NCBI GenBank assembly: GCA_965261135.1
Contig: OZ253443.1
Span: 2,192,521-2,256,520 of the forward strand
Origin: Acidimicrobiia bacterium
GTDB taxonomy: Bacteria; Actinomycetota; Acidimicrobiia; Spongiisociales; ZC4RG35
Reading direction: 5' to 3'
Length of the DNA stretch: 64,000 bases
Under the pieces are notes generated by a model. That model had not been told where the DNA came from. It saw only the letters and a list, made by a program, of their open reading frames with translations, and did no database searches. This document shows positions 2,208 to 62,413 of the stretch, one piece after another. How positions within the stretch are numbered: position 1 is the stretch's first letter; the number at the start of each line of letters is the position of its first letter. The translations under genes were made by a program, and so were the position numbers.

Positions 2208-3235
2208 GATCTCTTTGCCCCCTTGGTCTCCTGTCGGTCTCCCGCAAAGTTGTGATTCTCGCCCGCCTCGGCCGCGTGGCCGGTCAGGGTGAGGAACACA
2301 TCGTTGAGAGTGGGGCGCCGCAGACCTACATCGTGCAAGGCGACACCTGCCCGATCCAAGGCCCTAAGCGCCTCGGTGAGCACCGCGGCGCCTCCCGAGA
2401 CAGGAACCGTTACTTTGCGGTTCCGCTCATCGGAGACCAAATCACCTACCGCAAATCGCTCCATTAACTCCTGGGCCCTGGGAAGCTCATCGGAGGAGGA
2501 GACGGTAACTTCGATACGTTCGCCGCCCACCATTGTTTTTAGTTCGTCAGGGGTCCCCTGGGCAATCTCCTTACCCCGGTCGATAACCATGATCCGGTCC
2601 GCCAGATGGTCTGCTTCCTCCAGGTACTGGGTGGATAGCAACAGGGTCGAACCGCTTGCCACTAAGTCCCGGATAACCCCCCACAACTCAATACGACTGC
2701 GGGGGTCGAGGCCCGTGGTGGGCTCGTCCAAGAACAACACCGGCGGGGATGCCACCAGGGCGCCCGCCAGGTCAAGCCGCCGCCTCATTCCACCCGAGTA
2801 GGTCTTGACCGGCCGGTTGGCCGCCTCGGTCAAATCAAATATCTTCAAGAGCTCCCGAGCCCGGGTCCTCGACCGGGAACGGCCCAACCGGTAGAGCCGG
2901 CCGATCATGTCCAGGTTCTCGAATCCGGTCAGGTGCTCATCCAATGCCGCGTATTGGCCCGATAGTCCAATGCGTTTCCGCACCAGGCCGGGTTCCTTGA
3001 GCACATCGGCGCCAGCCACCCGCGCTGATCCCGAATCGGGAAGAATCAGGGTGGCCAGGATCGAGACCGCAGTGGTCTTTCCCGCTCCGTTGGGACCCAG
3101 AAGACCGTAGATGGACCCCTCTTCCACAGACAAGTCCAACCCGTCCAGAGCAACCACATCGCCATATCGCTTCACCAGACCCGATGTCTCAATCACATTG
3201 CCCATAGGCCTCCGTTCCGTCAACAGCGGGCACAC
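2204..3235 (-). CDS. ABC transporter ATP-binding protein (DrrA-like exporter ATPase)
   Basis: Walker A GPNGAGKTT, signature LSGGMRRR, Walker B LFLDEPTTGLD. Alternative start at M11 (3205). Confidence 0.9.
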   Translation of the reverse strand: MCPLLTERRPMGNVIETSGLVKRYGDVVALDGLDLSVEEGSIYGLLGPNGAGKTTAVSILATLILPDSGSARVAGADVLKEPGLVRKRIGLSGQYAALDEHLTGFENLDMIGRLYRLGRSRSRTRARELLKIFDLTEAANRPVKTYSGGMRRRLDLAGALVASPPVLFLDEPTTGLDPRSRIELWGVIRDLVASGSTLLLSTQYLEEADHLADRIMVIDRGKEIAQGTPDELKTMVGGERIEVTVSSSDELPRAQELMERFAVGDLVSDERNRKVTVPVSGGAAVLTEALRALDRAGVALHDVGLRRPTLNDVFLTLTGHAAEAGENHNFAGDRQETKGAKRS

Positions 3236-3408
3236 CCAGCCCTACCAAAAGCCGAAGGCTATACCACTCCCGCAATCTACCCCAAAACGCCACCACGCTG
3301 GCGAAATATCAAGAAAGAGGAAAGATACAATGCAGCACGGCCAACGACCCTGCTCACAGGCCTTCTGTTAAGAATCGGCTCGGCCAATTCTTGATTTGTA
3401 ACGCTTGG

Positions 3409-4131
3409 TCAGGACAAGCGGGATATCCGGACTTGCGCCTCGGCCATGTGAAGGGATGCGACCACCGGATCAATACAGAACGCATCGATCAGGTGAGCGA
3501 CCTCCCAGACCATACCTCCCCAGAGCGTGCACCCGAAGAAGACGGCCTCCACACGGTCCCGTTCGATCATGGCTCGGGCGGTCGGAACCCCCTCGGTGTG
3601 AAGCTGGCGGCGGAACTGCTCCTCGACGATTTCCGCGGTGACCTCGGTGTTGCCAACCAGTGACCCCTCGCCCTCCACGTGCATGGGCACGAACGCGACG
3701 GAACTGAAGGCTTCCGAAAGCCCGTAGGCTCGCAGCAAGCGATGAGTCACGTTGTTGATCCTGCGCCGGCCGTGTTCGTCGGGGGACAGCATTCCGACGT
3801 TGGCGCCCCGGGCGGCAGCCAATGCGACCGCGGCCTGTAGTGGACCGATCACCGGGATCTTGACGCATCGCTGCGCCTCCATCAACGCCGGATCCGCGCA
3901 GCATGCGATGATGGCGGCGTCGGCGCCTTCGCGTTCCGCCTGGAGAACCGCGCCGATCAATTCGTTCAAGTAGAGGGGCTCGAGGGGAAGCATGGGTCCG
4001 GCGAGTTCGGGGGGCAGTTCCAAGTGACGCACCTCGATGGACACACCGCTCGAGGCGTGGTTCTCGAGGACGGACAACATGCGTTTGGAGTGCAGGTCGC
4101 TCCCTACAGGTTCTATAAACCGAATTCTCAT
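3409..4131 (-). CDS. Asp/Glu/hydantoin racemase family protein (hydantoin racemase / arylmalonate decarboxylase-like)
   Basis: About 240 aa with conserved Cys-containing segments (IIACCAD..., FFGCTLW) and the two-lobed pattern of the PF01177 family. Confidence 0.65.
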   Translation of the reverse strand: MRIRFIEPVGSDLHSKRMLSVLENHASSGVSIEVRHLELPPELAGPMLPLEPLYLNELIGAVLQAEREGADAAIIACCADPALMEAQRCVKIPVIGPLQAAVALAAARGANVGMLSPDEHGRRRINNVTHRLLRAYGLSEAFSSVAFVPMHVEGEGSLVGNTEVTAEIVEEQFRRQLHTEGVPTARAMIERDRVEAVFFGCTLWGGMVWEVAHLIDAFCIDPVVASLHMAEAQVRISRLS

Positions 4132-5157: not shown

Positions 5158-6027
5158 CTAGGAGAAGTCGAACAGCCGCATGGCGTTCCCGCCCCGGATT
5201 GCATCTCGGTCGGCCGCCGAGAGGTCGGGCAGATAGTGATCCACCAGCGCCAGTTGTTCCGGATAGCCGGGCTCCACCACGATCCACGGGTAGTCGGAGG
5301 CCCACATCATCCGGTCGGCCCCGAAAATCCCATGGATCGCGTCCACAGTCGACTGAACATCGGGATGGGGATACGGCTCCTGGGTGAAGGCGTACTGCCC
5401 GGAGAGGTGGGCGTACACGTTTGGCCGGGCGGCGATCACCTCTATCGTCTTCAGCGATGCCGGCGGGAGGTCGAGAGTGAACCGGGGACGACCCCATTCG
5501 TCCGCTCTTATCTCATCCCAGATGCTCGGGCAGAATCCCAGATGGTTGATGACCACTGACAGGTCGGGAAGCAACTCCAGCACCCGATCCAACAAAAGCA
5601 CCTGCTCCTCGGTCGCGTAGAACCACAGCTTCACCCCGTCGGCGGCCATTTGCCGGAGGACGGGAAACATCTCGATCTGGTCGGCGGGCTGGGAGGGGTC
5701 GGGATCGAGGTTGAACAGCCGAAACCCCTGAAAGGGCGTTGCTTGGCGGCGCTCCCGGTAATTGGCGAGCTGATCAGGCGCGGAGACGTCCTGCACTCCC
5801 ACGATGGCAAACAGGTCAGGGCGGGTGGCCACCACCTCCCGCAGGTACTCGTCATGATGGGAGATACCCACGATCACCGCCTTGTCCACTCCCGCCCGCT
5901 TCATGTAGCCAAAGTATTCGTCCATCGGCGCCCGCCGCTCGGGTGGGGTCAAACCGGGAAACACATCGCGCGGGTATCGCTCGGAAATCGCCTCGAACAG
6001 ATGGAGGTGGGCATCGACTACCGTCAT
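5158..6027 (-). CDS. Amidohydrolase-2 family TIM-barrel metal-dependent hydrolase
   Basis: N-terminal VDAHLHLF metal-binding motif with later His/Asp ligands. About 290 aa, typical of the ACMSD/lactonase-like amidohydrolase_2 family. Confidence 0.75.
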   Translation of the reverse strand: MTVVDAHLHLFEAISERYPRDVFPGLTPPERRAPMDEYFGYMKRAGVDKAVIVGISHHDEYLREVVATRPDLFAIVGVQDVSAPDQLANYRERRQATPFQGFRLFNLDPDPSQPADQIEMFPVLRQMAADGVKLWFYATEEQVLLLDRVLELLPDLSVVINHLGFCPSIWDEIRADEWGRPRFTLDLPPASLKTIEVIAARPNVYAHLSGQYAFTQEPYPHPDVQSTVDAIHGIFGADRMMWASDYPWIVVEPGYPEQLALVDHYLPDLSAADRDAIRGGNAMRLFDFS

Positions 6028-6084
6028 TGGCAGCTCCTTTCAAAGATCGTTAGGGATATCGTAACCCCCCGGTGAAGCCACCCC

Positions 6085-6288
6085 CTACTGCGAAGGACCA
6101 GTCCTACTGAACCAAACAGCCTTCTTGGAGAAGCAGTAAGGGTTTCCCCTGGACTTCCAGCGTACGCACCACAGCGAGGCTTGGAGTTCCCGATTCGCAT
6201 TCAGGTAGCCACGGGTCCTCTCAAACCGCTTCTCTTTAGGCATCTTCGCGATTCGCTTTGAAAAAACCCTCCTTATCTTTACAGTCAT
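6085..6288 (-). CDS. Doubtful small basic ORF inside the low-GC patch (possible gene remnant)
   Basis: 67-aa Arg/Lys-rich ORF, no recognisable motif, no convincing RBS. Listed only because it sits at the island edge. Confidence 0.15.
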   Translation of the reverse strand: MTVKIRRVFSKRIAKMPKEKRFERTRGYLNANRELQASLWCVRWKSRGNPYCFSKKAVWFSRTGPSQ

Positions 6289-6396
6289 CTTGTGCTCTAT
6301 GTACCCTGCGGGGCTAACGAGAGCCTAGGACTGTCACATCCATGAAATAACATGGCTGTAAGTTACACTGCGTTCAAGCTGAAGGAGGTCTCAGGG

Positions 6397-6642
6397 ATGA
6401 CAACCACGATTTCACGCGATTGGCAATCTGAACGGCTCATGGATGAAGATCGGCTTCATCCTGATGAAGAGCGAATGTTGCGTGTGTTTGGCCAGCGCAA
6501 ACTAATACCCAATATGGGAGAGTTGCTGGAAGAACTCGGAGAACCTAAGATGAGTCATGCCGATGCCCATGTTGCCGTATGCAACCTAGCCATTAAGGGT
6601 CACGTCGCCTTCTCATTCGAAGGATATCGCCTTATCTCCTAA
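6397..6642 (+). CDS. Small acidic hypothetical protein (82 aa), translationally coupled to the downstream dGTPase-family gene
   Basis: Strong RBS aaggagg 8 nt upstream of the ATG at 6397. Stop TAA overlaps the next start (TAATG at 6640-6644). Low-GC codon usage matches the downstream gene. No TM segment and no known motif. The ORF track's longer 6352 start lacks an RBS. Confidence 0.55.
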   Translation: MTTTISRDWQSERLMDEDRLHPDEERMLRVFGQRKLIPNMGELLEELGEPKMSHADAHVAVCNLAIKGHVAFSFEGYRLIS

Positions 6643-7961
6643 TGCAGTCTGGCCAAGAGCGTTTAGACCCGATCGGCTCCATACCTGATTATCGCTCAGA
6701 GTTCCAACGTGATGTGGACAAGATCCTCTACTGTCCGGAGTTTCGCCGTCTCAGTGGAGTCACTCAGGTTGCTTCCGCCACGGAAGGCGACATCTTTCAC
6801 AACCGGTTGACCCACTCTCTGAAAGTCGCGCAGGTAGGGCGGCGACTTGCCGAACGCCTCATTGCTGATTTGGATCCCGACCAGAAGGGTGAAGTTACTC
6901 TTAATCCCGACGTTGTGGAAGCGGCTGGCCTTGCTCACGATTTAGGCCACCCACCGTTCGGACATGAAGGTGAGGAAGCAATTTGCGAGGCGATGCGTGA
7001 AGAGACTATCGGTGGAGTCGAGGGCGACCTGGAAGGATTTGAGGGAAACGCTCAGACCTTCCGGATAGTGACCAGGTTAGCTGCTCCTGAGACTCCCAGA
7101 GGCAGGGGCTTTGGCCTCAACTTGACCCGGAGCACTCTGAACGCGATTCTCAAATACCCATGGCTGAGTTGTGACCGCGGAGAGAGGAAAAAATGGGGGG
7201 CGTACCAGAGTGAAGAAGAAGTCTTTCGTCAAGTACGAAGACAGTTTTTCGAGGGGGAACAGTTGAGCTTGGAGGCCAAGCTGATGGACTGGGCGGATGA
7301 TGTTACCTATGCGGTACATGACCTGGATGACTTCTACCGAGCGGGCCTAATACCCCTCCATAGACTTCATACCGGAGGTATCTTCCAAGGTACCGCCACG
7401 AGGACCCCCGAGTTAGAGTTCTTCATGGCGGAGATCGACAATACCTCTGTTCCAGACGCAGAGGTTCTCGCCAGTTTGCTCCATAAGAGTTACTCTTTCC
7501 TAAATGCTCCCTACAGGGGATCCGGGCAACAGAGGGAAGCGCTGCGAGCAAGCACATCGTTATTGCTCACCAGTTTTATCAATGCTGTCACCCTCGAAGG
7601 CAATCCACCTGAGGTCGTGATATGCCCAGAAAGACACCGTGAAGTCGATCTCCTCAAGCAATTGACCATGTACTATGTCATAAGGCATCCTCGCGTGGTG
7701 GGAGTGCGCGAAGGTCAGCGGAGAATGCTCAAGAAGCTATTTGACATCTATGTTGAGGTGATCAGTAGATCCCAAGAGCGGTCCCAAGAACGACTTCAAG
7801 CCTTGTTACCTCAATCTACGATCGACCGTCTCCACAGCGGAGATACGGTGAAGCGGCTAGCTGCGGACCTGCTGGCTGGCATGACCGAACGGCAAGTCAT
7901 CCAGACTTACCACCGTCTTAACGGCATGGCGCCAGGTCCGCTAGCTCACTTTGACCTCTAA
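6642..7961 (+). CDS. dGTP triphosphohydrolase (Dgt) family HD-domain protein
   Basis: N-terminal DYRSEFQRDVDKILYCPEFRRLSGVTQV resembles Dgt R-x-x-F-Q-R-D-x-D-R-I-x-x-S-x-x-F-R-R-L. HD motif region HNRLTHSLKVAQVGRRLA ... LAHDLGHPPFGHEGE. 439 aa. GC about 53 % versus about 68 % in the flanks. Confidence 0.85.
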   Translation: MQSGQERLDPIGSIPDYRSEFQRDVDKILYCPEFRRLSGVTQVASATEGDIFHNRLTHSLKVAQVGRRLAERLIADLDPDQKGEVTLNPDVVEAAGLAHDLGHPPFGHEGEEAICEAMREETIGGVEGDLEGFEGNAQTFRIVTRLAAPETPRGRGFGLNLTRSTLNAILKYPWLSCDRGERKKWGAYQSEEEVFRQVRRQFFEGEQLSLEAKLMDWADDVTYAVHDLDDFYRAGLIPLHRLHTGGIFQGTATRTPELEFFMAEIDNTSVPDAEVLASLLHKSYSFLNAPYRGSGQQREALRASTSLLLTSFINAVTLEGNPPEVVICPERHREVDLLKQLTMYYVIRHPRVVGVREGQRRMLKKLFDIYVEVISRSQERSQERLQALLPQSTIDRLHSGDTVKRLAADLLAGMTERQVIQTYHRLNGMAPGPLAHFDL

Positions 7962-8316
7962 CAAGGCCCCTTTGTGGAGGTAGGGCCGCCGGAGGGAAGT
8001 GTGCGAAACAATGGAGAATGGCTAATCCATATCGTTGGGAAGCAGCATAATTTCCTGAGGAGGACGCAGCAAGTCACTGGAAGGAGACTCGGAAGCGGGC
8101 CCGCCAGAAAGCTCTGTTAGGGTGGGAGCCAGAGCCCAGCAAATGAGGGCCAACGGGGTGGTGCGATCCAGGTCTACATGGAGAACGTCGGCGGCACCAT
8201 GCCACTCTTTGTCGGCTAGGGAACCGCAGTAATAGCTACCGAGATCTACTGGCGTTATAACGGCCCGAGGATAGCCGTTCAGCCTCTATCCAGCCGAAAA
8301 GGTATCGACAATTGCG

Positions 8317-8676
8317 TTAGGAGCGGCGAAGCAGCAGAAACACGTAGGACAAGGCGATAAGAGGAATAACCGAGAAGACGAGCGGCAGCCACGGGTCGCC
8401 TTTGGTGAGACCCGTCCCGATTGCCAGATAGAGAAATACATCGGCGGCTATGTTGAGCGTCAGCAATGCGAGGCTGGCCTTGATCAGTTTCTTCGACCGG
8501 TTTCGGCCCATTACCAATATGACAAGTAGCACAGCCGCCGCCGGATGAACACCGACCAAGATCAGCCGTTCCCACCACTGGCCGCCATCCGCAAAGCTGC
8601 CGACCAAGGCCGTAAAAGCAACGATGAACATCTGCACCCAGGCGAGGATGCGGAGCAGGATCAGGAATCTAGTCAT
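8317..8676 (-). CDS. Small integral membrane protein (4 TM helices), hypothetical
   Basis: 119 aa, four hydrophobic segments, ends LLLRRS. Intermediate GC (about 55 %). Confidence 0.5.
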   Translation of the reverse strand: MTRFLILLRILAWVQMFIVAFTALVGSFADGGQWWERLILVGVHPAAAVLLVILVMGRNRSKKLIKASLALLTLNIAADVFLYLAIGTGLTKGDPWLPLVFSVIPLIALSYVFLLLRRS

Positions 8677-8732
8677 TTTTTCGTCCTATCAAATGGTAAC
8701 GATGGGCCCACAAAGGTTGTTCAGCATGCCCT

Positions 8733-9506
8733 TTAGCTCAGTTCGGCGGTGGCGAAAATTACGTGGAATGGTCTGCAATAGATGATGACGGTCACTTGCT
8801 CAGGGACTTGGTAGTCGGCGGGGAAATCGTAGTTCTGTGAGCCGATATTTCCTTTCAGCGGAGCCAACTCGATGTAACCGGCCGCCTGCAGGGCCTCGCG
8901 GTTGGTTATCCCATGGGCCGGAGCGACTATCACGCGGAGGTCGGGACCATTGGTTACCTCAATGTCTTCCAGTCGAAGTACATGGGAGCCATCTTCCAGG
9001 CGGTATACCGTCACCTGGCCTGAGCCTTTGTGGAAGTCGTCGGCATCCATCAGAGCGCCGGTGGCTACGGCCACCGGTCCCGTTGCCACGGGCTCTGGCG
9101 CCTGCGGTTCGGTGGTCTCGACAGCGTCCATAGCGGTAGTGGTTGTCTCGGCAGCCGCGGTTGTAGTTGCGGTGGCCTCGGGGTCAGCGGGAGTGGTAGA
9201 GGGCGGTTCCGCTTCGGACATGTCCGTAGCGGGCATATCCTCGTCGACCACCGCATCGATGGCCTCGGCCTCCATCATCACATCCTCGACTTCGGCCGGG
9301 GTCATGTCGTCGGGGATCACCGCCATCGCCGCTCTCGGGAAAGGTTCGTCCACCACCTTGTCTATGAACAGGGGTGAGATCAGCCACCATGCCAGAGCAA
9401 GGCCCAGAACGGCCACGACCACTGCAGTGATCCGAACTGATCTTCGCTTGTGGAAGGGGAGACGGTTGGTCATGTTCCTCCTTGATCTAACCCCAAATCT
9501 AGGCAA
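8733..9506 (-). CDS. DM13-domain protein with N-terminal TM anchor and acidic Thr/Ala/Glu-rich linker
   Basis: C-terminal roughly 110 aa (DADDFHKGSGQVTVYRLEDGSHVLRLEDIEVTNGPDLRVIVA...LKGNIGSQNYDFP) matches the DM13 beta-rich domain pattern. N-terminal hydrophobic helix. Low-complexity linker. Likely start at M11 (9476). Confidence 0.6.
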   Translation of the reverse strand: MPRFGVRSRRNMTNRLPFHKRRSVRITAVVVAVLGLALAWWLISPLFIDKVVDEPFPRAAMAVIPDDMTPAEVEDVMMEAEAIDAVVDEDMPATDMSEAEPPSTTPADPEATATTTAAAETTTTAMDAVETTEPQAPEPVATGPVAVATGALMDADDFHKGSGQVTVYRLEDGSHVLRLEDIEVTNGPDLRVIVAPAHGITNREALQAAGYIELAPLKGNIGSQNYDFPADYQVPEQVTVIIYCRPFHVIFATAELS

Positions 9507-30818: not shown

Positions 30819-31661
30819 TCAGGCCGGAGCGGGGGCTTTTCGACGGAGGGAATCACGCAGCCGCGATCCTGTCAGGGCTACGAAGAACAGGGACACCGAG
30901 ATCAACACGATGGTGGCCGAGGCGGCCGTGGAAAAGCGATAGCTGATCACCAGACCACTGATCACCGAGAAGACCGCCAAAGCGGCAGAGACCGCCATCA
31001 CCAGCACCACCCGCCGAACCAGGATAATGGCCGTGGCCGGAGGCCCGATCAGCAGACCGAACACCAGGATAGCGCCTACTCCCTGAAACAGGACGACCAT
31101 CGTACCCGTGATGAGCGCCAACAGTGTCAGGTGAGCTATCCGAGGACGAAGGTCCATCATCTCGGCTTTGGCCTCATTGAAGGCGAGGGCCAGAAACGAC
31201 CGATACATCACAACCGATACCGCCATGGCAACCACCAGGCTCACCGCTTCCAACAGGATGCCGCCGCCGGTCACCCCCAGCAGGTCACCGAATAGAACCG
31301 CGGTGATCGAGACCGAAAAGCTGGAGGTCAGTGAAATCACCACCACTCCGAGGGACAGCATGCCCACGAACAGCAGCCCGATCCCGATGTCGGCGCTGAG
31401 CTTGGTGTGTTGGTGAACCTGATTGATCCCCCATACCATCACCACCCCAGCCACCAGCGCCCCCCACAGCGGATTGACTCCCGCCAGCAGGGCGATAGCG
31501 ACACCGGGAATAATCCCATGGGCAACCGCATCGCCCATGAAGGACATCCCCCGGATAACCACCCAGGTACCCACCACCGAGGTAAGTATCCCGGCCAGTA
31601 TCCCGGCCAGTAACGCCCGCTGCTGAAAAGCGAATTCAAACGGCTCCAACAGCCAGTCCAT
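30819..31661 (-). CDS. znuB: Metal (zinc/manganese) ABC transporter permease, ABC-3 family (ZnuB-like)
   Basis: 280 aa, 8-9 TM, ABC-3 permease pattern. Divergent from a Fur-family regulator gene across a Fur-type box. Confidence 0.8.
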   Translation of the reverse strand: MDWLLEPFEFAFQQRALLAGILAGILTSVVGTWVVIRGMSFMGDAVAHGIIPGVAIALLAGVNPLWGALVAGVVMVWGINQVHQHTKLSADIGIGLLFVGMLSLGVVVISLTSSFSVSITAVLFGDLLGVTGGGILLEAVSLVVAMAVSVVMYRSFLALAFNEAKAEMMDLRPRIAHLTLLALITGTMVVLFQGVGAILVFGLLIGPPATAIILVRRVVLVMAVSAALAVFSVISGLVISYRFSTAASATIVLISVSLFFVALTGSRLRDSLRRKAPAPA

Positions 31662-31702
31662 ACCATCTACTTTCTCGAATCGGATAAATATGCATCAGCG
31701 AT

Positions 31703-31717
31703 TGATAATCATTATCA
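31703..31717. promoter_or_regulatory. Fur-family (Zur) operator: perfect 7-1-7 palindrome TGATAATCATTATCA in the znuB / zur-znuC divergent promoter
   Basis: Read directly. Sits in the AT-rich 66-bp intergenic region between the znuB start (31661, minus) and the zur start (31728, plus). Matches the GATAAT-n-ATTATC Fur/Zur box architecture. Confidence 0.75.
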
Positions 31718-31727
31718 TATATGAACC

Positions 31728-32165
31728 ATGTTTGGACTCCACTCCAAAGTAGAAGAGAGTCTTCGCTCGCAGGGCATGCGCTATACCACCAACCGCAGGG
31801 CGCTCGTCGAGGCGCTGGACAACACCGCAGGCCCTCTCACCGTCGAAGAGCTCTACCAGGTTACGGAGGCGCGCATCCCTTTTTCCTCCATCTATAGGGA
31901 CGTTCGCGTGTTGACCGAATCGCAGGTGCTCGCCTCTCACCACAGCGCCGATCGGTCCAACCGCTTCGAATTGGCCGAATGGCTGACGGGACATCATCAC
32001 CACTTGGTGTGCATGCAGTGCATGGCCATCTCCGACATCTCCCTGACCCCTGAAACCGAGTACCGCCTCTCCCGGTTGGCGGAGAACGCAGCCACCGACA
32101 CCGGGTATCGGGTAGCCGGCCACACCCTGGAGATCGAGGGCCTGTGCCCGAACTGCCAGACATGA
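31728..32165 (+). CDS. zur: Fur-family transcriptional regulator (zinc uptake regulator, Zur-like)
   Basis: 145 aa. HHHHLVCMQC and CPNC metal-binding Cys pairs. N-terminal winged-helix DNA-binding region. Co-located with znuB/znuC and a Fur box. Confidence 0.8.
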   Translation: MFGLHSKVEESLRSQGMRYTTNRRALVEALDNTAGPLTVEELYQVTEARIPFSSIYRDVRVLTESQVLASHHSADRSNRFELAEWLTGHHHHLVCMQCMAISDISLTPETEYRLSRLAENAATDTGYRVAGHTLEIEGLCPNCQT

Positions 32166-60512: not shown

Positions 60513-61109
60513 ATGAGAATCTTGGTGGTGTGGGCCCATCCTCTCTCGGACAGCTACTCGGCGGCCCTCAAAGACCGGGCGGTGGAAACTCTGGAGGCCT
60601 CCGGTCACAATGTCGGCCTCCTGGATCTCTACGCCGAGGACTTCGACCCGGTCCTCTCTGCCCAGGAGCGTCGGGACTATCACGAGATCGGACCCAACCA
60701 GGCCAATGTGGGGCCCTATGTGGAGCAACTGCGGGCTGCCGAGGGTCTGCTGCTCATCTTCCCCACCTGGAGCTTCGGCTACCCCGCCATCCTGACCGGA
60801 TGGCTACAGCGGGTGTGGATCCCCGGAGTGGCCTTCGGACTCCGAGAAGAAGGTGGACCCATCATCCCGGGGATACTGAGCATCCGCAGGGTGGCGGCCA
60901 TCACCACCACCGGATCTCCCTGGTGGTATGTGAAGGCGGTGGGCAACCCCGCCAGGAAGGTGCTGAAACGGGGCCATCGGGTCATGTTCGCCAAAGGCTG
61001 CCGAGTGAAATGGCTTGACCTGAACAACATGAACAAGGACTCCCCGAACAAGAGAAAGAGGTTCCTGGCCAAGGTGGAACGCGTACTCGCGGGCTTCTTT
61101 CATGGTTAG
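60513..61109 (+). CDS. Flavodoxin-like-fold NAD(P)H dehydrogenase (quinone) family protein
   Basis: MRILVVWAHP...SYS ... LLIFPTWSFGYPAILTGWLQRVW, typical of NQO1/MdaB-like FMN/FAD reductases. 198 aa. Confidence 0.7.
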   Translation: MRILVVWAHPLSDSYSAALKDRAVETLEASGHNVGLLDLYAEDFDPVLSAQERRDYHEIGPNQANVGPYVEQLRAAEGLLLIFPTWSFGYPAILTGWLQRVWIPGVAFGLREEGGPIIPGILSIRRVAAITTTGSPWWYVKAVGNPARKVLKRGHRVMFAKGCRVKWLDLNNMNKDSPNKRKRFLAKVERVLAGFFHG

Positions 61110-61200
61110 GGTTCGGCGACACAACACAACTCCCCCCATCATTTATAGAGATTTGTTCCGCTTATAGAAAAAATGCTATAAACCCCACAACTCCCTATAA

Positions 61201-62413
61201 ACCGCGAACGCTTCCTCCAATCTGACAAGGCCCAAGAATGGATCCCGGAAAGACCCATACAGCCCAGGGGCGGGCACCCGACCTCCAGCTCTGGTAGGAC
61301 GAGACCGAGAGTTGCATCAATTTCAGATCGCTACTCGGCGACTTAGCGCTGGTCTGTCCGACAGAAGCCTGCTCCTCACCGGACTCCGGGGCGTGGGAAA
61401 AACAGTCCTGCTCAATGAGTTTTGTAGTATCGCCCACCGGCATGAGTGGGCATACCAGCAGATCGAGGCCACCAGAGACCTTGCAGTTGCCGCGCATAAT
61501 GGCGGAGCGGATCCGCATCGTCCTGCTGCAACTATCCACCGGTAAGCGCCTTGCAAAGCGCGCCCGACAGGCTTTGGGAGTATTGAAGTCGTTCAGAGTG
61601 CGGTGGAATTTGCCGGAGGGAGGCGATATTGAACTGGGAATCGAACCCACGCTTGGACGAACGGACACGGGAATCCTTCAGGAAGACCTTGCCGATTTGT
61701 TCATTGAAGTGGGCGAATACGCTCGGACCAGGAAAGCAGGAGTCCTGCTCACCATCGACGAGGCCCAATATCTCAGGCGAGACCAACTACGACCCCTGAT
61801 TATGGGACTGCATAAAGTAAGCCAGAAGCAACTCCCATTCATGGTGGTCGGCGCAGGGTTGCCTTCGCTTCTCGCCTTGGTCGGCGAGGCCCGATCCGAT
61901 GCGGAGCGACTTTTTTCCTTTGTCAGCATCAACAGCCTTCGGCCGAACGACGCGACCACCGCCCTTACCACCCCAGCCGAAGAACGTGACGTGCAGTGGC
62001 AGCGCGATGCCTTGCACCGAATCGTGGAGGAAACAGCCGGATATCCCTATTTTCTCCAAGAATTCGGCAAACAGGCATGGAACTTGGCCGTCGGACCTCA
62101 TCGAATTACCTTGGAGGATGCGGACGGCTCCGTACCTATTGCACTCCGAGAGCTCGACAGCGGTTTCTTCAGCGTCCGATTCGACCGAACCACGGATGCA
62201 GAGCGTGCCTATCTGGCCGCTATGGCTTCCCTCGGACCAGGTCCTTACCAATCCGGTAGGGTGGCGGCTGCAATGAACAAGAACACTTCCCAAGTGAGCA
62301 CCCAACGCAACTCCCTGATTACTAAAGGCCTATGTCATTCTCCCAGCCATGGCCAGATTGCTTTCACGGTGCCGATGTTCCATGATTTTGTGCGTCGTCG
62401 CATGTCGTCATGA
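61201..62413 (+). pseudogene. AAA+ ATPase (AAA_16 / ORC-Cdc6-like with C-terminal winged helix) disrupted by at least one frameshift and lacking a canonical start
   Basis: Frame 3 from 61201: ...KDPYSPGAGTRPPALVGRDRELHQFQ...LLLTGLRGVGKTVLLNEF (Walker A). It shifts frame at about 61485-61500 into the 61415-62413 ORF (Walker B/sensor region VLLTIDEAQYL; C-terminal wHTH-like tail). No ATG/GTG/TTG start in the N-terminal frame before the TTG at 61312. AT-rich region upstream (61110-61200). Confidence 0.5.

What the first reader, a model, noticed from the sequence alone, without database searches (positions are those of the whole stretch)
6030..8320. Low-GC island carrying a translationally coupled small protein + dGTPase-family HD hydrolase pair: candidate two-gene dNTP-depletion defence module
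From about 6030 to 8320 the composition drops to roughly 50-55 % GC (third codon positions full of A/T) against about 68 % in the flanking amidohydrolase and peptide-ABC genes. The patch holds an 82-aa acidic protein (6397-6642) with a strong RBS whose stop overlaps (TAATG) the start of a 439-aa protein with unmistakable Dgt-family motifs (R-x-EFQRD-x-DKI...FRRL; HD region). Stand-alone dGTPases are a published anti-phage mechanism (dGTP pool depletion). A dGTPase with an obligatorily co-translated small partner of no recognisable family, in a clearly foreign patch, is not a configuration I recognise as described. The partner could be a sensor, regulator or immunity/antitoxin-like component. 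No integrase or tRNA marks the borders; only a dubious 67-aa ORF and a 355-nt noncoding scar.
Basis: partly seen in the sequence, partly recalled or inferred. Interest (0 to 1): 0.72.

Follow-up and report, generated by a model that had tools for sequence, protein, structure and literature searches.

The report
Winged-helix partner plus accessory dGTPase operon
A foreign-looking patch in this Acidimicrobiia genome carries a conserved, mobile two-gene operon: a small winged-helix protein coupled to a non-housekeeping dGTPase-family enzyme, probably a regulated nucleotide-depletion (anti-phage) module whose partner type I could not find described.

Summary
Window 6028-8316 is the lowest-GC 2.3 kb of the window (53.5% against 62.8%, z = -4). 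It carries an 81-aa ORF (6397-6642) whose stop overlaps (TAATG) the start of a 439-aa Dgt-family HD hydrolase (6642-7961).

The small ORF is a real gene. It is a stand-alone winged-helix protein with no Pfam, NCBIfam or PHROG family. Recognisable homologues lie directly upstream of a dGTPase in Acidimicrobiia, soil metagenomes, Sphingomonas sp. KC8 and IMG/VR prophage contigs.

In a tree of 87 Dgt proteins, every partnered enzyme falls in one clade (95% bootstrap for the wider clade). That clade is separate from the actinobacterial housekeeping dus-dgt-dnaG genes, none of which has the partner (20 of 21 against 0 of 62).

The pair is strain-variable, sometimes duplicated, IS-flanked or prophage-borne, and usually below host GC. 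Close relatives share a promoter/operator-like element, GTCACAY-N8-TAnnnT, found once in the 64-kb window.

A defence role is inferred, not shown. The PADLOC dGTPase model scores housekeeping enzymes higher, and the NCBIfam anti-phage model is not met.

Best reading: a regulated dNTP-depletion module restrained by its winged-helix partner, a new variant alongside single-gene dGTPases and Clover (CloA/CloB).

The parts
6028..6396 (+). Low-GC (52%) upstream region of the module. Its last ~270 nt travel with the pair in relatives.
   Evidence: Window 6130-6396 is 95% identical in same-species contigs L002/L003, even though the upstream neighbour there is a different gene (the PIN toxin). It is 72% identical in L005.
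6333..6353 (+). Conserved promoter/operator-like element: GTCACAT (6333-6339), an 8-nt spacer, and the -10-like TAACAT (6348-6353). A second half-site-like GTTACAC lies at 6362-6368. An inverted repeat CCATG-N6-CATGG lies at 6340-6355.
   Evidence: GTCACAY-N8-TAnnnT occurs once on both strands of the whole 64-kb window. It occurs once per copy of the small gene in L001, L003 (two copies), L005, L006 and L011, always 47-68 nt before the small gene's ATG. L012 has the same spacing with TATAAG. L010 has only a degenerate version. Function as an operator is inferred.
6384..6388 (+). Shine-Dalgarno sequence GGAGG, 8 nt before the ATG of the small gene.
   Evidence: Sequence. It is conserved in the orthologues and the paralogue.
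6397..6642 (+). Small partner gene: 81 aa, acidic, a stand-alone winged-helix domain with a disordered N-terminal 15-20 residues.
   Evidence: AF2 model with pLDDT 80.6: H22-33, H40-47, H54-66 and a beta-hairpin at 70-79. Fold matches are to winged-helix domains. Homologues of 80-84 aa lie upstream of Dgt genes. The family alignment is A8. Profile-profile P = 4e-5 to the soil-metagenome group.
6642..7961 (+). Dgt-family dNTP triphosphohydrolase (439 aa) of the partnered, non-housekeeping clade. Its start codon overlaps the stop of the small gene (TAATG).
   Evidence: Pfam HD plus HD_assoc; TIGR01353 at 273.8 bits. Metal and catalytic residues are invariant. It is below the cutoffs of PRK03007 and antiphage_dGTPase.
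7962..8316 (.). Non-coding scar downstream of the module, with a remnant of a YbjQ-like gene at about 8099-8230.
   Evidence: blastn gives 70% identity to both YbjQ_1 genes of L005. The spacer is 99% identical in L002/L003. There is no long ORF and no Rfam hit.

Best explanation
Window 6333-7961 is a self-contained, horizontally mobile two-gene operon. An 81-aa winged-helix protein is translated first. A Dgt-family dNTP triphosphohydrolase is translated by coupling at the overlapping TAATG.

The enzyme belongs to a distinct accessory clade, not to the housekeeping dus-dgt-dnaG lineage. It has an intact HD active site, so it should hydrolyse dGTP, and possibly other dNTPs, to the deoxynucleoside plus triphosphate.

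The most likely role is a regulated nucleotide-depletion module that limits replication of phages or other invading DNA. The winged-helix partner would keep the costly enzyme in check. I think it does so mainly as an autorepressor, binding the conserved GTCACAY element that sits 8 nt upstream of the -10-like hexamer. It may additionally contact the enzyme, as type II antitoxins do. Loss or titration of the partner during infection would release dNTPase expression or activity.

Shown here: the gene pair, its co-conservation, the clade separation, mobility and strain variability, the winged-helix fold, and the conserved cis element.

Inferred: DNA binding by the partner, negative regulation, dGTP specificity, and the anti-phage role.
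For: Co-conservation:
- Orthologous pairs sit at the same slot in sister taxa (L005: small 89%, Dgt 79% identity; L001: 71% and 71%).
- A paralogous pair in the same species has diverged in step (63% and 61%).
- More distant pairs sit in unrelated contexts: L006, L010, L011, L012, L013, soil contigs L015-L027 and L077, Sphingomonas sp. KC8 (L095), and IMG/VR contigs L100-L104 and L119.

Clade:
- All partnered enzymes are monophyletic, against 62 dus-dgt-dnaG type enzymes without a partner (Fisher p = 3e-18).

Accessory nature:
- The pair is 4-14 GC points below its flanks in 10 of the 11 loci examined; L013 is at flank level.
- It shows strain-level gain, loss and decay.
- IS elements, a Phd/PIN pair, a type I HsdR, a pAgo/SIR2-like gene and phage integrases are occasional neighbours.

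Regulator:
- Winged-helix fold.
- JGI names some members HxlR-family regulators.
- A unique conserved GTCACAY-N8-TAnnnT lies upstream of the small gene at fixed spacing in at least 7 lineages.

Precedent for the need for restraint:
- CloA dGTPase is toxic without CloB (PMC12265719).
- The dCTP deaminase AvcD is held by the labile antitoxin AvcI (PMC10511110).
- Single-gene dGTPases defend by dGTP depletion and respond to transcription shut-off (10.1101/2021.04.26.441389).
Against: - No experiment bears on this module.
- Defence neighbours are sparse. Most flanking genes are metabolic or transport genes.
- The PADLOC dGTPase hit is uninformative, because housekeeping Dgts score higher.
- The NCBIfam anti-phage model is not met (231 bits against a cutoff of 400).
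- The partner family is mostly acidic (70% of members have pI below 7).
- Its putative recognition helix is poor in basic residues.
- The conserved GTCACAY could be a promoter element rather than an operator.
- It is not seen in the more distant (group 2) loci.
- The pair has stayed at this slot across sister taxa, so it is not a very recent arrival here.
Confidence: 0.5

Rival explanations
1. Antitoxin-like protein inhibitor. The small winged-helix protein acts mainly by binding the dGTPase oligomer and blocking it, in the manner of the 10-kDa T7 protein Gp1.2 or of a type II antitoxin. It is proteolytically labile. Shut-off of host gene expression by a phage lets it decay and frees the enzyme. 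DNA binding is secondary or absent.
For: - The stop/start overlap is conserved in the Acidimicrobiia-type lineages.
- The family is mostly acidic, and strongly so in the sphingomonad branch (pI 4.1-4.6).
- Conserved but disordered terminal tails are present. These are an acidic N-terminus in the window's group, and ...A[HND]AA-COOH or ...SAAR in others: 49 of 80 members, against a 1.3% background for a terminal AA.
- The tail has diverged in an orphan copy that has lost its dGTPase.
- An orphan small gene survives after deletion of the dGTPase in L002/L003.
- CloA alone is toxic (PMC12265719). Gp1.2 shows that a small protein can inhibit a Dgt through a terminal tail (PMC9478638).
Against: - In L007, seen in two samples, the small gene has been replaced by an IS up to 12 nt before the dGTPase ATG, while the enzyme is 100% intact. 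That should be lethal if the partner were an essential antitoxin, unless the promoter was lost as well.
- No natural fusion of the two proteins was found.
- Complex prediction was not possible with the tools at hand.
- The conserved upstream motif and the many DNA-binding winged-helix fold matches fit a regulator.
Confidence: 0.25
2. Not a defence system. The pair is an accessory dNTP-pool control enzyme with its own regulator, for example lowering dNTPs in non-replicating or starved cells or tuning mutation rate. It is simply carried on mobile DNA.
For: - Dgt enzymes have housekeeping roles in cell-cycle and genome-integrity control (PMC11071499; discussion in 10.1101/2021.04.26.441389).
- Most neighbours of the pair are metabolic or transport genes.
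- The pair is syntenic across sister taxa.
- Tal et al. found that dGTPase homologues distant from the tested defensive one are next to defence genes in only about 10% of cases.
Against: - Strain-level gain, duplication and decay.
- GC below the host's in 10 of 11 loci.
- Flanking IS elements and prophage or IMG/VR locations.
- Two copies on one 858-kb contig, one of them next to PIN and HsdR genes.
- A phylogeny separate from the housekeeping enzyme.
Confidence: 0.2
3. The small ORF is a chance ORF, or only a leader peptide, and only the dGTPase is a real gene.
For: It has no hit in any family library. Only 3 close homologues turned up in the first search.
Against: - Protein-level conservation at 63-99% identity, with length kept at 80-84 aa, through orthologues and a paralogue.
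- A confident winged-helix model.
- 80 family members found with a profile.
- A strong RBS.
- Presence upstream of 20 of 21 clade enzymes and 0 of 62 housekeeping ones.
Confidence: 0.02

Closest known systems
Single-gene anti-phage dGTPases (Sp-dGTPase type; Tal et al., 10.1101/2021.04.26.441389; PADLOC/DefenseFinder 'dGTPase')
   Same: Same enzyme superfamily (HD plus HD_assoc, TIGR01353). The expected chemistry is the same (dGTP to dG plus PPPi). Both are accessory, horizontally moving genes.
   Different: Those are stand-alone genes. The window's enzyme is below the NCBIfam antiphage_dGTPase cutoff (231 against 400). It belongs to another clade that nearly always has a winged-helix gene upstream.
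Clover (CloA dGTPase + CloB nucleotidyltransferase; PMC12265719)
   Same: A two-gene operon in which a partner restrains a potentially toxic defensive dGTPase. The PDB 'dNTP triphosphohydrolase' entries 9p8s-9p8v, which may be CloA (not verified), are distant homologues (E = 1e-32).
   Different: The Clover partner is a downstream Pol-beta-type enzyme that makes the inhibitor p3diT. Here the partner is an upstream 81-aa winged-helix protein with no catalytic motif, and there is no NTase in the island.
AvcID (dCTP deaminase toxin + sRNA antitoxin; PMC10511110) and type II toxin-antitoxin operons
   Same: A nucleotide-depleting effector held by a small, probably labile, co-encoded factor. The architecture is that of type II TA operons: a small upstream gene with a DNA-binding-type fold, overlapping the effector gene, with a conserved element in the promoter.
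   Different: AvcI is an RNA. No type II antitoxin family matches the small protein. One natural variant (L007) keeps the enzyme without the partner.
T7 Gp1.2, a 10-kDa protein inhibitor of E. coli Dgt (PMC9478638)
   Same: A protein of about 80-85 aa that could inhibit a Dgt oligomer through a flexible terminal segment.
   Different: Gp1.2 is phage-encoded and has a different fold (a three-stranded sheet plus two helices). It did not appear among the top fold matches.
Housekeeping actinobacterial Dgt (NCBIfam PRK03007; dus-dgt-dnaG locus)
   Same: The closest curated sequence model by score (257 bits). Same domain architecture.
   Different: The score is below the cutoff of 385. There is no dus or dnaG neighbour. 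The window's enzyme sits in a separate clade. Housekeeping enzymes never have the small partner.

Membership tests
Dgt / dNTP triphosphohydrolase family (TIGR01353; Pfam HD + HD_assoc) | HMM score above the curated cutoff, with an HD domain followed by HD_assoc | tested here: met
   TIGR01353 273.8 bits (cutoff 152.35). PF01966 50.4 bits and PF13286 49.5 bits, both above their cutoffs.
Dgt / dNTP triphosphohydrolase family (TIGR01353; Pfam HD + HD_assoc) | Metal-binding H...HD...D residues and conserved catalytic residues present | tested here: met
   H58, H99/D100 and D219/D220 are invariant in a 47-sequence alignment that includes the window protein.
Dgt / dNTP triphosphohydrolase family (TIGR01353; Pfam HD + HD_assoc) | dGTP (dNTP) triphosphohydrolase activity | not testable with these tools
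   Needs an enzyme assay.
Housekeeping actinobacterial Dgt (NCBIfam NF002829 / PRK03007) | Equivalog HMM score of at least 385 bits | tested here: not met
   The window protein scores 257.2. Control dus-dgt-dnaG enzymes score 535.8 and 585.1.
Housekeeping actinobacterial Dgt (NCBIfam NF002829 / PRK03007) | Conserved dus-dgt-dnaG neighbourhood | tested here: not met
   The window's neighbours are an amidohydrolase and a membrane/DM13 gene pair. The housekeeping clade has Dus upstream and DnaG downstream.
Anti-phage dGTPase (NCBIfam NF041026 / NF003701; Sp-dGTPase type) | HMM score of at least 400 (NF041026) or 383 (NF003701) | tested here: not met
   231.4 and 192.6 bits. Other members of the partnered clade score 230-241.
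Anti-phage dGTPase (NCBIfam NF041026 / NF003701; Sp-dGTPase type) | At least 45% identity to Sp-dGTPase, the band in which Tal et al. saw defence-island enrichment | not tested
PADLOC 'dGTPase' system | Match to PDLC02374 | tested here: met
   311 bits. The model is not discriminating, because housekeeping dus-dgt-dnaG enzymes score 367-381. Meeting it says nothing about defence.
Clover (CloA + CloB) | Adjacent Pol-beta-superfamily nucleotidyltransferase partner (CloB) | tested here: not met
   The only partner is the 81-aa winged-helix protein. No other gene lies in 6028-8316, and the flanking genes have other families.
Type II toxin-antitoxin module | Small upstream gene with a DNA-binding-type fold, overlapping or adjacent to the effector gene in one operon | tested here: met
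   TAATG overlap. Winged-helix model. Conserved element in the promoter region.
Type II toxin-antitoxin module | The effector is not tolerated without the partner; the partner is labile and binds the effector | tested here: inconclusive
   L007 keeps an intact enzyme after IS replacement of the small gene, which argues against. The promoter was removed too, so the case is not decisive. Binding and lability need experiments.
Named winged-helix regulator families (MarR, ArsR, HxlR, PadR, IclR, LexA N-terminal domains) | Sequence-profile membership | tested here: not met

The most novel reading that the evidence does not exclude
The winged-helix partner is a new kind of proteinaceous immunity or antitoxin factor for a defensive dNTPase. 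It would be a labile, co-translated protein that both represses the operon and plugs the Dgt oligomer through its conserved disordered tail (the acidic N-terminus here, ...AxAA-COOH in alphaproteobacteria). Its decay on phage-induced shut-off of host expression would be the long-sought trigger for dGTPase defence. That would make this a protein-based counterpart of AvcI and of CloB/p3diT.
Probability: 0.2. Interest if true: 0.75.

Novelty: new variant of a known kind. Interest (0 to 1): 0.62.

Why it matters
How bacteria keep nucleotide-depleting immune enzymes harmless until infection is a current question. Two answers are known so far: an sRNA antitoxin (AvcI) and a small-molecule inhibitor made by a partner enzyme (CloB).

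This module adds a third, previously unannotated partner type. It is a small winged-helix protein tied to a whole clade of dGTPases. The clade is found in Actinomycetota (Acidimicrobiia), in contigs some of whose members NCBI assigns to Thermoanaerobaculia, in Alphaproteobacteria and in prophages.

It also has practical consequences:
- Current defence-finder models for 'dGTPase' cannot tell this clade, or any defensive clade, from housekeeping Dgt.
- The presence of the small upstream gene is a simple genomic marker for the accessory clade.
- Sphingomonas sp. KC8 (CP016306) offers a cultured organism in which to test it.

Tried and rejected
- Sequence libraries gave nothing for the small protein: Pfam, NCBIfam, PADLOC and PHROGs.
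- A full HMMER scan of 1.84 billion representatives with the narrow profile A1 found only the close group, plus one spurious repeat protein, P0126. Iterating that profile on local ORFs did not reach the distant group. The link needed synteny plus a profile-profile comparison.
- The search for a natural fusion (Rosetta stone) failed. The 562-aa homologue P0091 has only a low-complexity N-terminal extension.
- Rfam found no RNA family in 5900-8800. The terminator scan found none.
- The sigma-70 scan found one weak promoter-like site, at 6258-6285, that is not conserved. I rejected it in favour of the conserved GTCACAY-N8-TAnnnT element.
- The ORF at 6085-6288(-) was rejected as a gene.
- The PADLOC hit was rejected as evidence for defence after the housekeeping control.
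- The neighbour survey hits to mad3, mad8, AriA and HEC-01A were counted 3-7 times each, much like the ABC transporter components among the same ORFs. I read them as generic ABC-type matches, not defence genes, without checking them member by member.
Full report
**1. Observation**

The composition drop is real.
- Window 6030-8320 has 53.5% GC against a window mean of 62.8%. It is the lowest of all 2.3-kb windows (z = -4.0).
- Codon third positions show the drop most clearly: 47.6% GC3 in the small gene and 57.3% in the dGTPase, against 73-84% in the flanking genes.

The gene content is as described.
- An 81-aa ORF runs 6397-6642, with GGAGG 8 nt before the ATG.
- Its TAA overlaps the ATG of a 439-aa ORF at 6642-7961.
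- The 439-aa protein matches Pfam HD plus HD_assoc and NCBIfam TIGR01353 (273.8 bits, cutoff 152).
- Its metal and catalytic residues are invariant among 47 relatives.
- There is no second Dgt in the 64-kb window.

The remaining features of the patch are not genes.
- The 67-aa ORF on the minus strand (6085-6288) is frameshifted in same-species contigs and absent in sister taxa.
- The 355-nt downstream spacer keeps a 70%-identical remnant of a YbjQ-like gene. That gene sits at this position in a sister genome.
- No Rfam family matches in 5900-8800.

**2. The small ORF is a gene, and it is a winged-helix protein**

No family library recognises it.

A word-indexed search of 5.8 billion proteins found three homologues at 71-99% identity, all 81 aa. 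A full HMMER scan added an 80-aa and an 84-aa relative.

AlphaFold2 gives a confident model (pLDDT 80.6). It has a disordered N-terminus followed by helix, helix, helix and a beta-hairpin. Foldseek matches are all winged-helix domains: the IclR, LexA and Fur DNA-binding domains and the cullin WHB domain.

**3. The pair is a conserved module**

Context look-ups starting from either gene keep returning the same arrangement.

*Same slot, between the amidohydrolase and the membrane/DM13 genes*
- Sister taxon L005, an Acidimicrobiia MAG (OZ242000.1), has the pair at 89% (small) and 79% (Dgt) identity.
- L001 has it at 71% and 71%, with an intact enzyme.
- Same-species contigs L002 and L003 (flanking genes 95-99.7% identical) have a second, paralogous pair (63% and 61% identity) plus a Phd/PIN toxin-antitoxin pair inserted.
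- In those contigs the copy of the window's dGTPase has an in-frame 1.1-kb deletion, while the small gene is intact.

*Unrelated contexts*
- dGTPases at 51-56% identity are each preceded by a 74-84-aa homologue of the small protein, mostly with a 4-nt overlap (L006/L008, L010, L011, L012).
- Two such pairs lie on one 858-kb contig. One of them is near a PIN gene and a type I HsdR.
- L011 is flanked by IS elements.

*More distant relatives*
- At 38-47% identity, soil-metagenome contigs carry an upstream ORF of 69-85 aa. Gene callers often miss it.
- These ORFs form a well-aligned second group.
- The first group's profile ranks second-group members as its best non-self hits among 7,509 local ORFs.
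- A profile-profile comparison aligns the two groups in register over 53 columns (P = 4e-5, probability 70%).
- A joint alignment shows one helix/strand pattern.

*Family search and reverse check*
- Searching with the joint profile returns 80 proteins of 68-129 aa. None has a Pfam domain. JGI names a few 'HxlR family regulator'. Some come from cultured Sphingomonas, Sphingopyxis and Blastomonas.
- Starting from three of these small proteins, two are followed by a dGTPase: Sphingomonas sp. KC8 CP016306 and a JGI contig.
- The third is an orphan inside a prophage, next to a recombinase fragment. It has no dGTPase remnant.
- Six IMG/VR viral contigs with dGTPases at 37-40% identity also have the small gene upstream.

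**4. The enzyme is not the housekeeping Dgt**

In a neighbour-joining tree of 87 Dgt proteins from the fetched loci, every enzyme with the partner falls in one clade.
- The wider clade has 95% bootstrap support. The inner clade has 58%.
- The other 62 enzymes have no small ORF upstream.
- Where the flanks were examined, those enzymes lie between a dihydrouridine synthase gene and dnaG (Pfam confirmation).
- Presence of the partner is 20 of 21 against 0 of 62 (Fisher p = 3e-18). That count includes L025, whose upstream winged-helix-like ORF I judged by eye.

Curated models agree.
- Housekeeping enzymes pass the PRK03007 equivalog with 536-585 bits.
- The window protein and three other partnered enzymes score 257-286, below the cutoff of 385. 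They also fail the anti-phage dGTPase model (231-241 against 400).

One control matters for interpretation. The PADLOC dGTPase model scores housekeeping enzymes higher (367-381 bits) than the partnered clade (304-322). A PADLOC call here is therefore no evidence of defence.

**5. Accessory and mobile character**

- The pair is 4-14 GC points below the rest of its locus in 10 of the 11 loci examined, including Sphingomonas.
- It shows strain-level insertion, duplication and decay.
- In L007 an IS has replaced the small gene up to 12 nt before the dGTPase start, while the enzyme is unchanged.
- A survey of 147 neighbouring ORFs from 22 loci found mostly metabolic and transport genes.
- The same survey also found a type II methyltransferase, NsnB-like, PD-Lambda-5_B-like and pAgo/SIR2-like proteins, and two phage integrases.

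The association with defence genes and mobile elements is real but modest.

**6. A conserved cis element**

In the Acidimicrobiia-type lineages the small gene is preceded, 47-68 nt before its ATG, by GTCACAY. Exactly 8 nt further on comes a -10-like TAnnnT hexamer.
- In the window these lie at 6333-6339 and 6348-6353.
- The composite pattern occurs once on both strands of the whole 64-kb window. It occurs once per copy of the small gene in the other loci.
- It is kept in the paralogue and in unrelated genomic contexts, while the surrounding DNA has diverged.
- Several loci have a second, similar half-site about 30 nt downstream (GTTACAC at 6362-6368 in the window).
- The window also has an inverted repeat, CCATG-N6-CATGG, across the spacer.

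A position between the expected -35 and the -10 is where repressors commonly bind. That is the main argument for autoregulation by the winged-helix protein. It could equally be an unusual promoter element. It is absent from the distant group.

**7. Mechanism**

*Shown*
- A two-gene operon with its own conserved promoter region.
- A catalytically intact Dgt-family enzyme of an accessory clade.
- A co-inherited winged-helix partner.

*Inferred*
- The enzyme depletes dGTP or dNTPs, and the partner restrains it.
- I favour transcriptional autorepression, on the strength of the fold and the cis element.

*The main rival: a direct, antitoxin-like inhibitor*
- 70% of family members have a pI below 7. 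The sphingomonad branch is at pI 4.1-4.6.
- The putative recognition helix is poor in basic residues.
- Subfamilies carry conserved but disordered terminal tails...A[HND]AA-COOH in 22 of 80 members and ...SAAR or ...AAAR in 27 of 80.
- An orphan copy that lost its enzyme has lost the tail motif.
- A terminal AA resembles the ssrA-type ClpXP signal. That resemblance is from my own knowledge and is untested here.
- Against an essential antitoxin stands L007, although the IS also removed the promoter there.

The two roles can coexist, as they do in type II antitoxins.

**8. Comparison with what is known**

- Single-gene dGTPases defend by dGTP depletion and appear to sense transcription shut-off (10.1101/2021.04.26.441389).
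- Clover pairs a dGTPase (CloA, toxic on its own) with an NTase that makes the inhibitor p3diT (PMC12265719).
- AvcD, a dCTP deaminase, is held in check by an sRNA antitoxin (PMC10511110).
- A 2026 survey lists domain fusions of dGTPases and octameric assemblies but does not discuss operon partners. The words 'operon', 'upstream' and 'HTH' do not occur in its main text (PMC13519002).
- T7 Gp1.2 shows that a 10-kDa protein can inhibit a Dgt (PMC9478638).
- Searches of the paper library for dGTPase together with 'winged helix' and 'defense system', or with 'two-gene', 'nucleotide depletion' and 'phage', returned nothing that describes this pair.

I therefore file the module as a new variant of a known kind: a nucleotide-depletion enzyme with a dedicated restraining partner. 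It is not a member of the Sp-dGTPase family, not Clover, and not the housekeeping Dgt.

**9. Verdict**

Confidence by claim:
- Conserved, mobile two-gene module: about 0.9.
- The partner is a negative regulator at some level: about 0.6-0.7.
- Anti-phage function: about 0.55.

Interest is moderate to high. The partner family is unannotated and phylogenetically broad. It bears on how dNTPase immunity is controlled, and it is testable in a cultured Sphingomonas. The enzyme class and the general logic are already known.

Noticed in passing
PADLOC model PDLC02374 against L052:4001-5191 and L088:4001-5194: The PADLOC 'dGTPase' HMM scores housekeeping dus-dgt-dnaG enzymes (367-381 bits) higher than the accessory clade (304-322 bits). 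Automated defence annotation with this model alone will call housekeeping genes.
   Followed up: yes
L002:5291-8461 and L003:4969-8139 (same species as the window): The slot is a strain-variable hotspot. These contigs have an extra paralogous winged-helix + dGTPase pair and a Phd/PIN toxin-antitoxin pair. Their copy of the window's dGTPase has an in-frame deletion of about 1.1 kb (roughly S59 to A435) at a CTC microhomology, while the small gene stays intact.
   Followed up: yes
window 8099-8230; L005:7424-7744 and 8365-8685: The downstream spacer holds a 70%-identical remnant of a YbjQ_1-family gene. That gene is present in two copies at this site in the sister genome.
   Followed up: partly
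Proteins P0127-P0203; L095:6001-6222: Subfamilies of the small partner end in conserved, predicted-disordered tails...A[H/N/D]AA-COOH (22 of 80) or ...SAAR/AAAR (27 of 80). A terminal AA resembles an ssrA-type ClpXP signal. The orphan copy P0149 has a diverged tail (YSRAQ).
   Followed up: partly
L096:6001-6219 and L097:2494-2712: An orphan family member sits inside a prophage (terminase, S24 repressor), next to a recombinase fragment and near EcoRII-N and SNF2-helicase genes. There is no dGTPase or remnant of one.
   Followed up: partly
L007:4283-6000: An IS (DDE_Tnp_1) and a rearranged upstream context replace the small gene up to 12 nt before the dGTPase ATG. The enzyme is 100% identical to that of L006. 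The contig was seen in two samples.
   Followed up: yes
L104:4329-6170 (-): A 613-aa protein with pAgo and SIR2-PNTD-type PADLOC hits lies convergent to the winged-helix + dGTPase pair on an IMG/VR contig.
   Followed up: partly
window 6085-6288 (-): The 67-aa basic ORF is frameshifted by a 1-nt indel in same-species contigs and has no match in sister taxa, so it is not a gene.
   Followed up: yes
window 3150-3450, 31001-32000, 61001-62000: Other stretches with GC below the window mean (0.55, 0.585, 0.56). They were not examined.
   Followed up: no
window 8317-8676 (-) and 8733-9506 (-): A 119-aa multi-pass membrane protein (weak DUF6320 match) and a DM13-domain protein with a proline- and threonine-rich linker are conserved neighbours in all related contigs. 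They diverge faster (64-67% identity) than the flanking enzymes (85-92%).
   Followed up: partly
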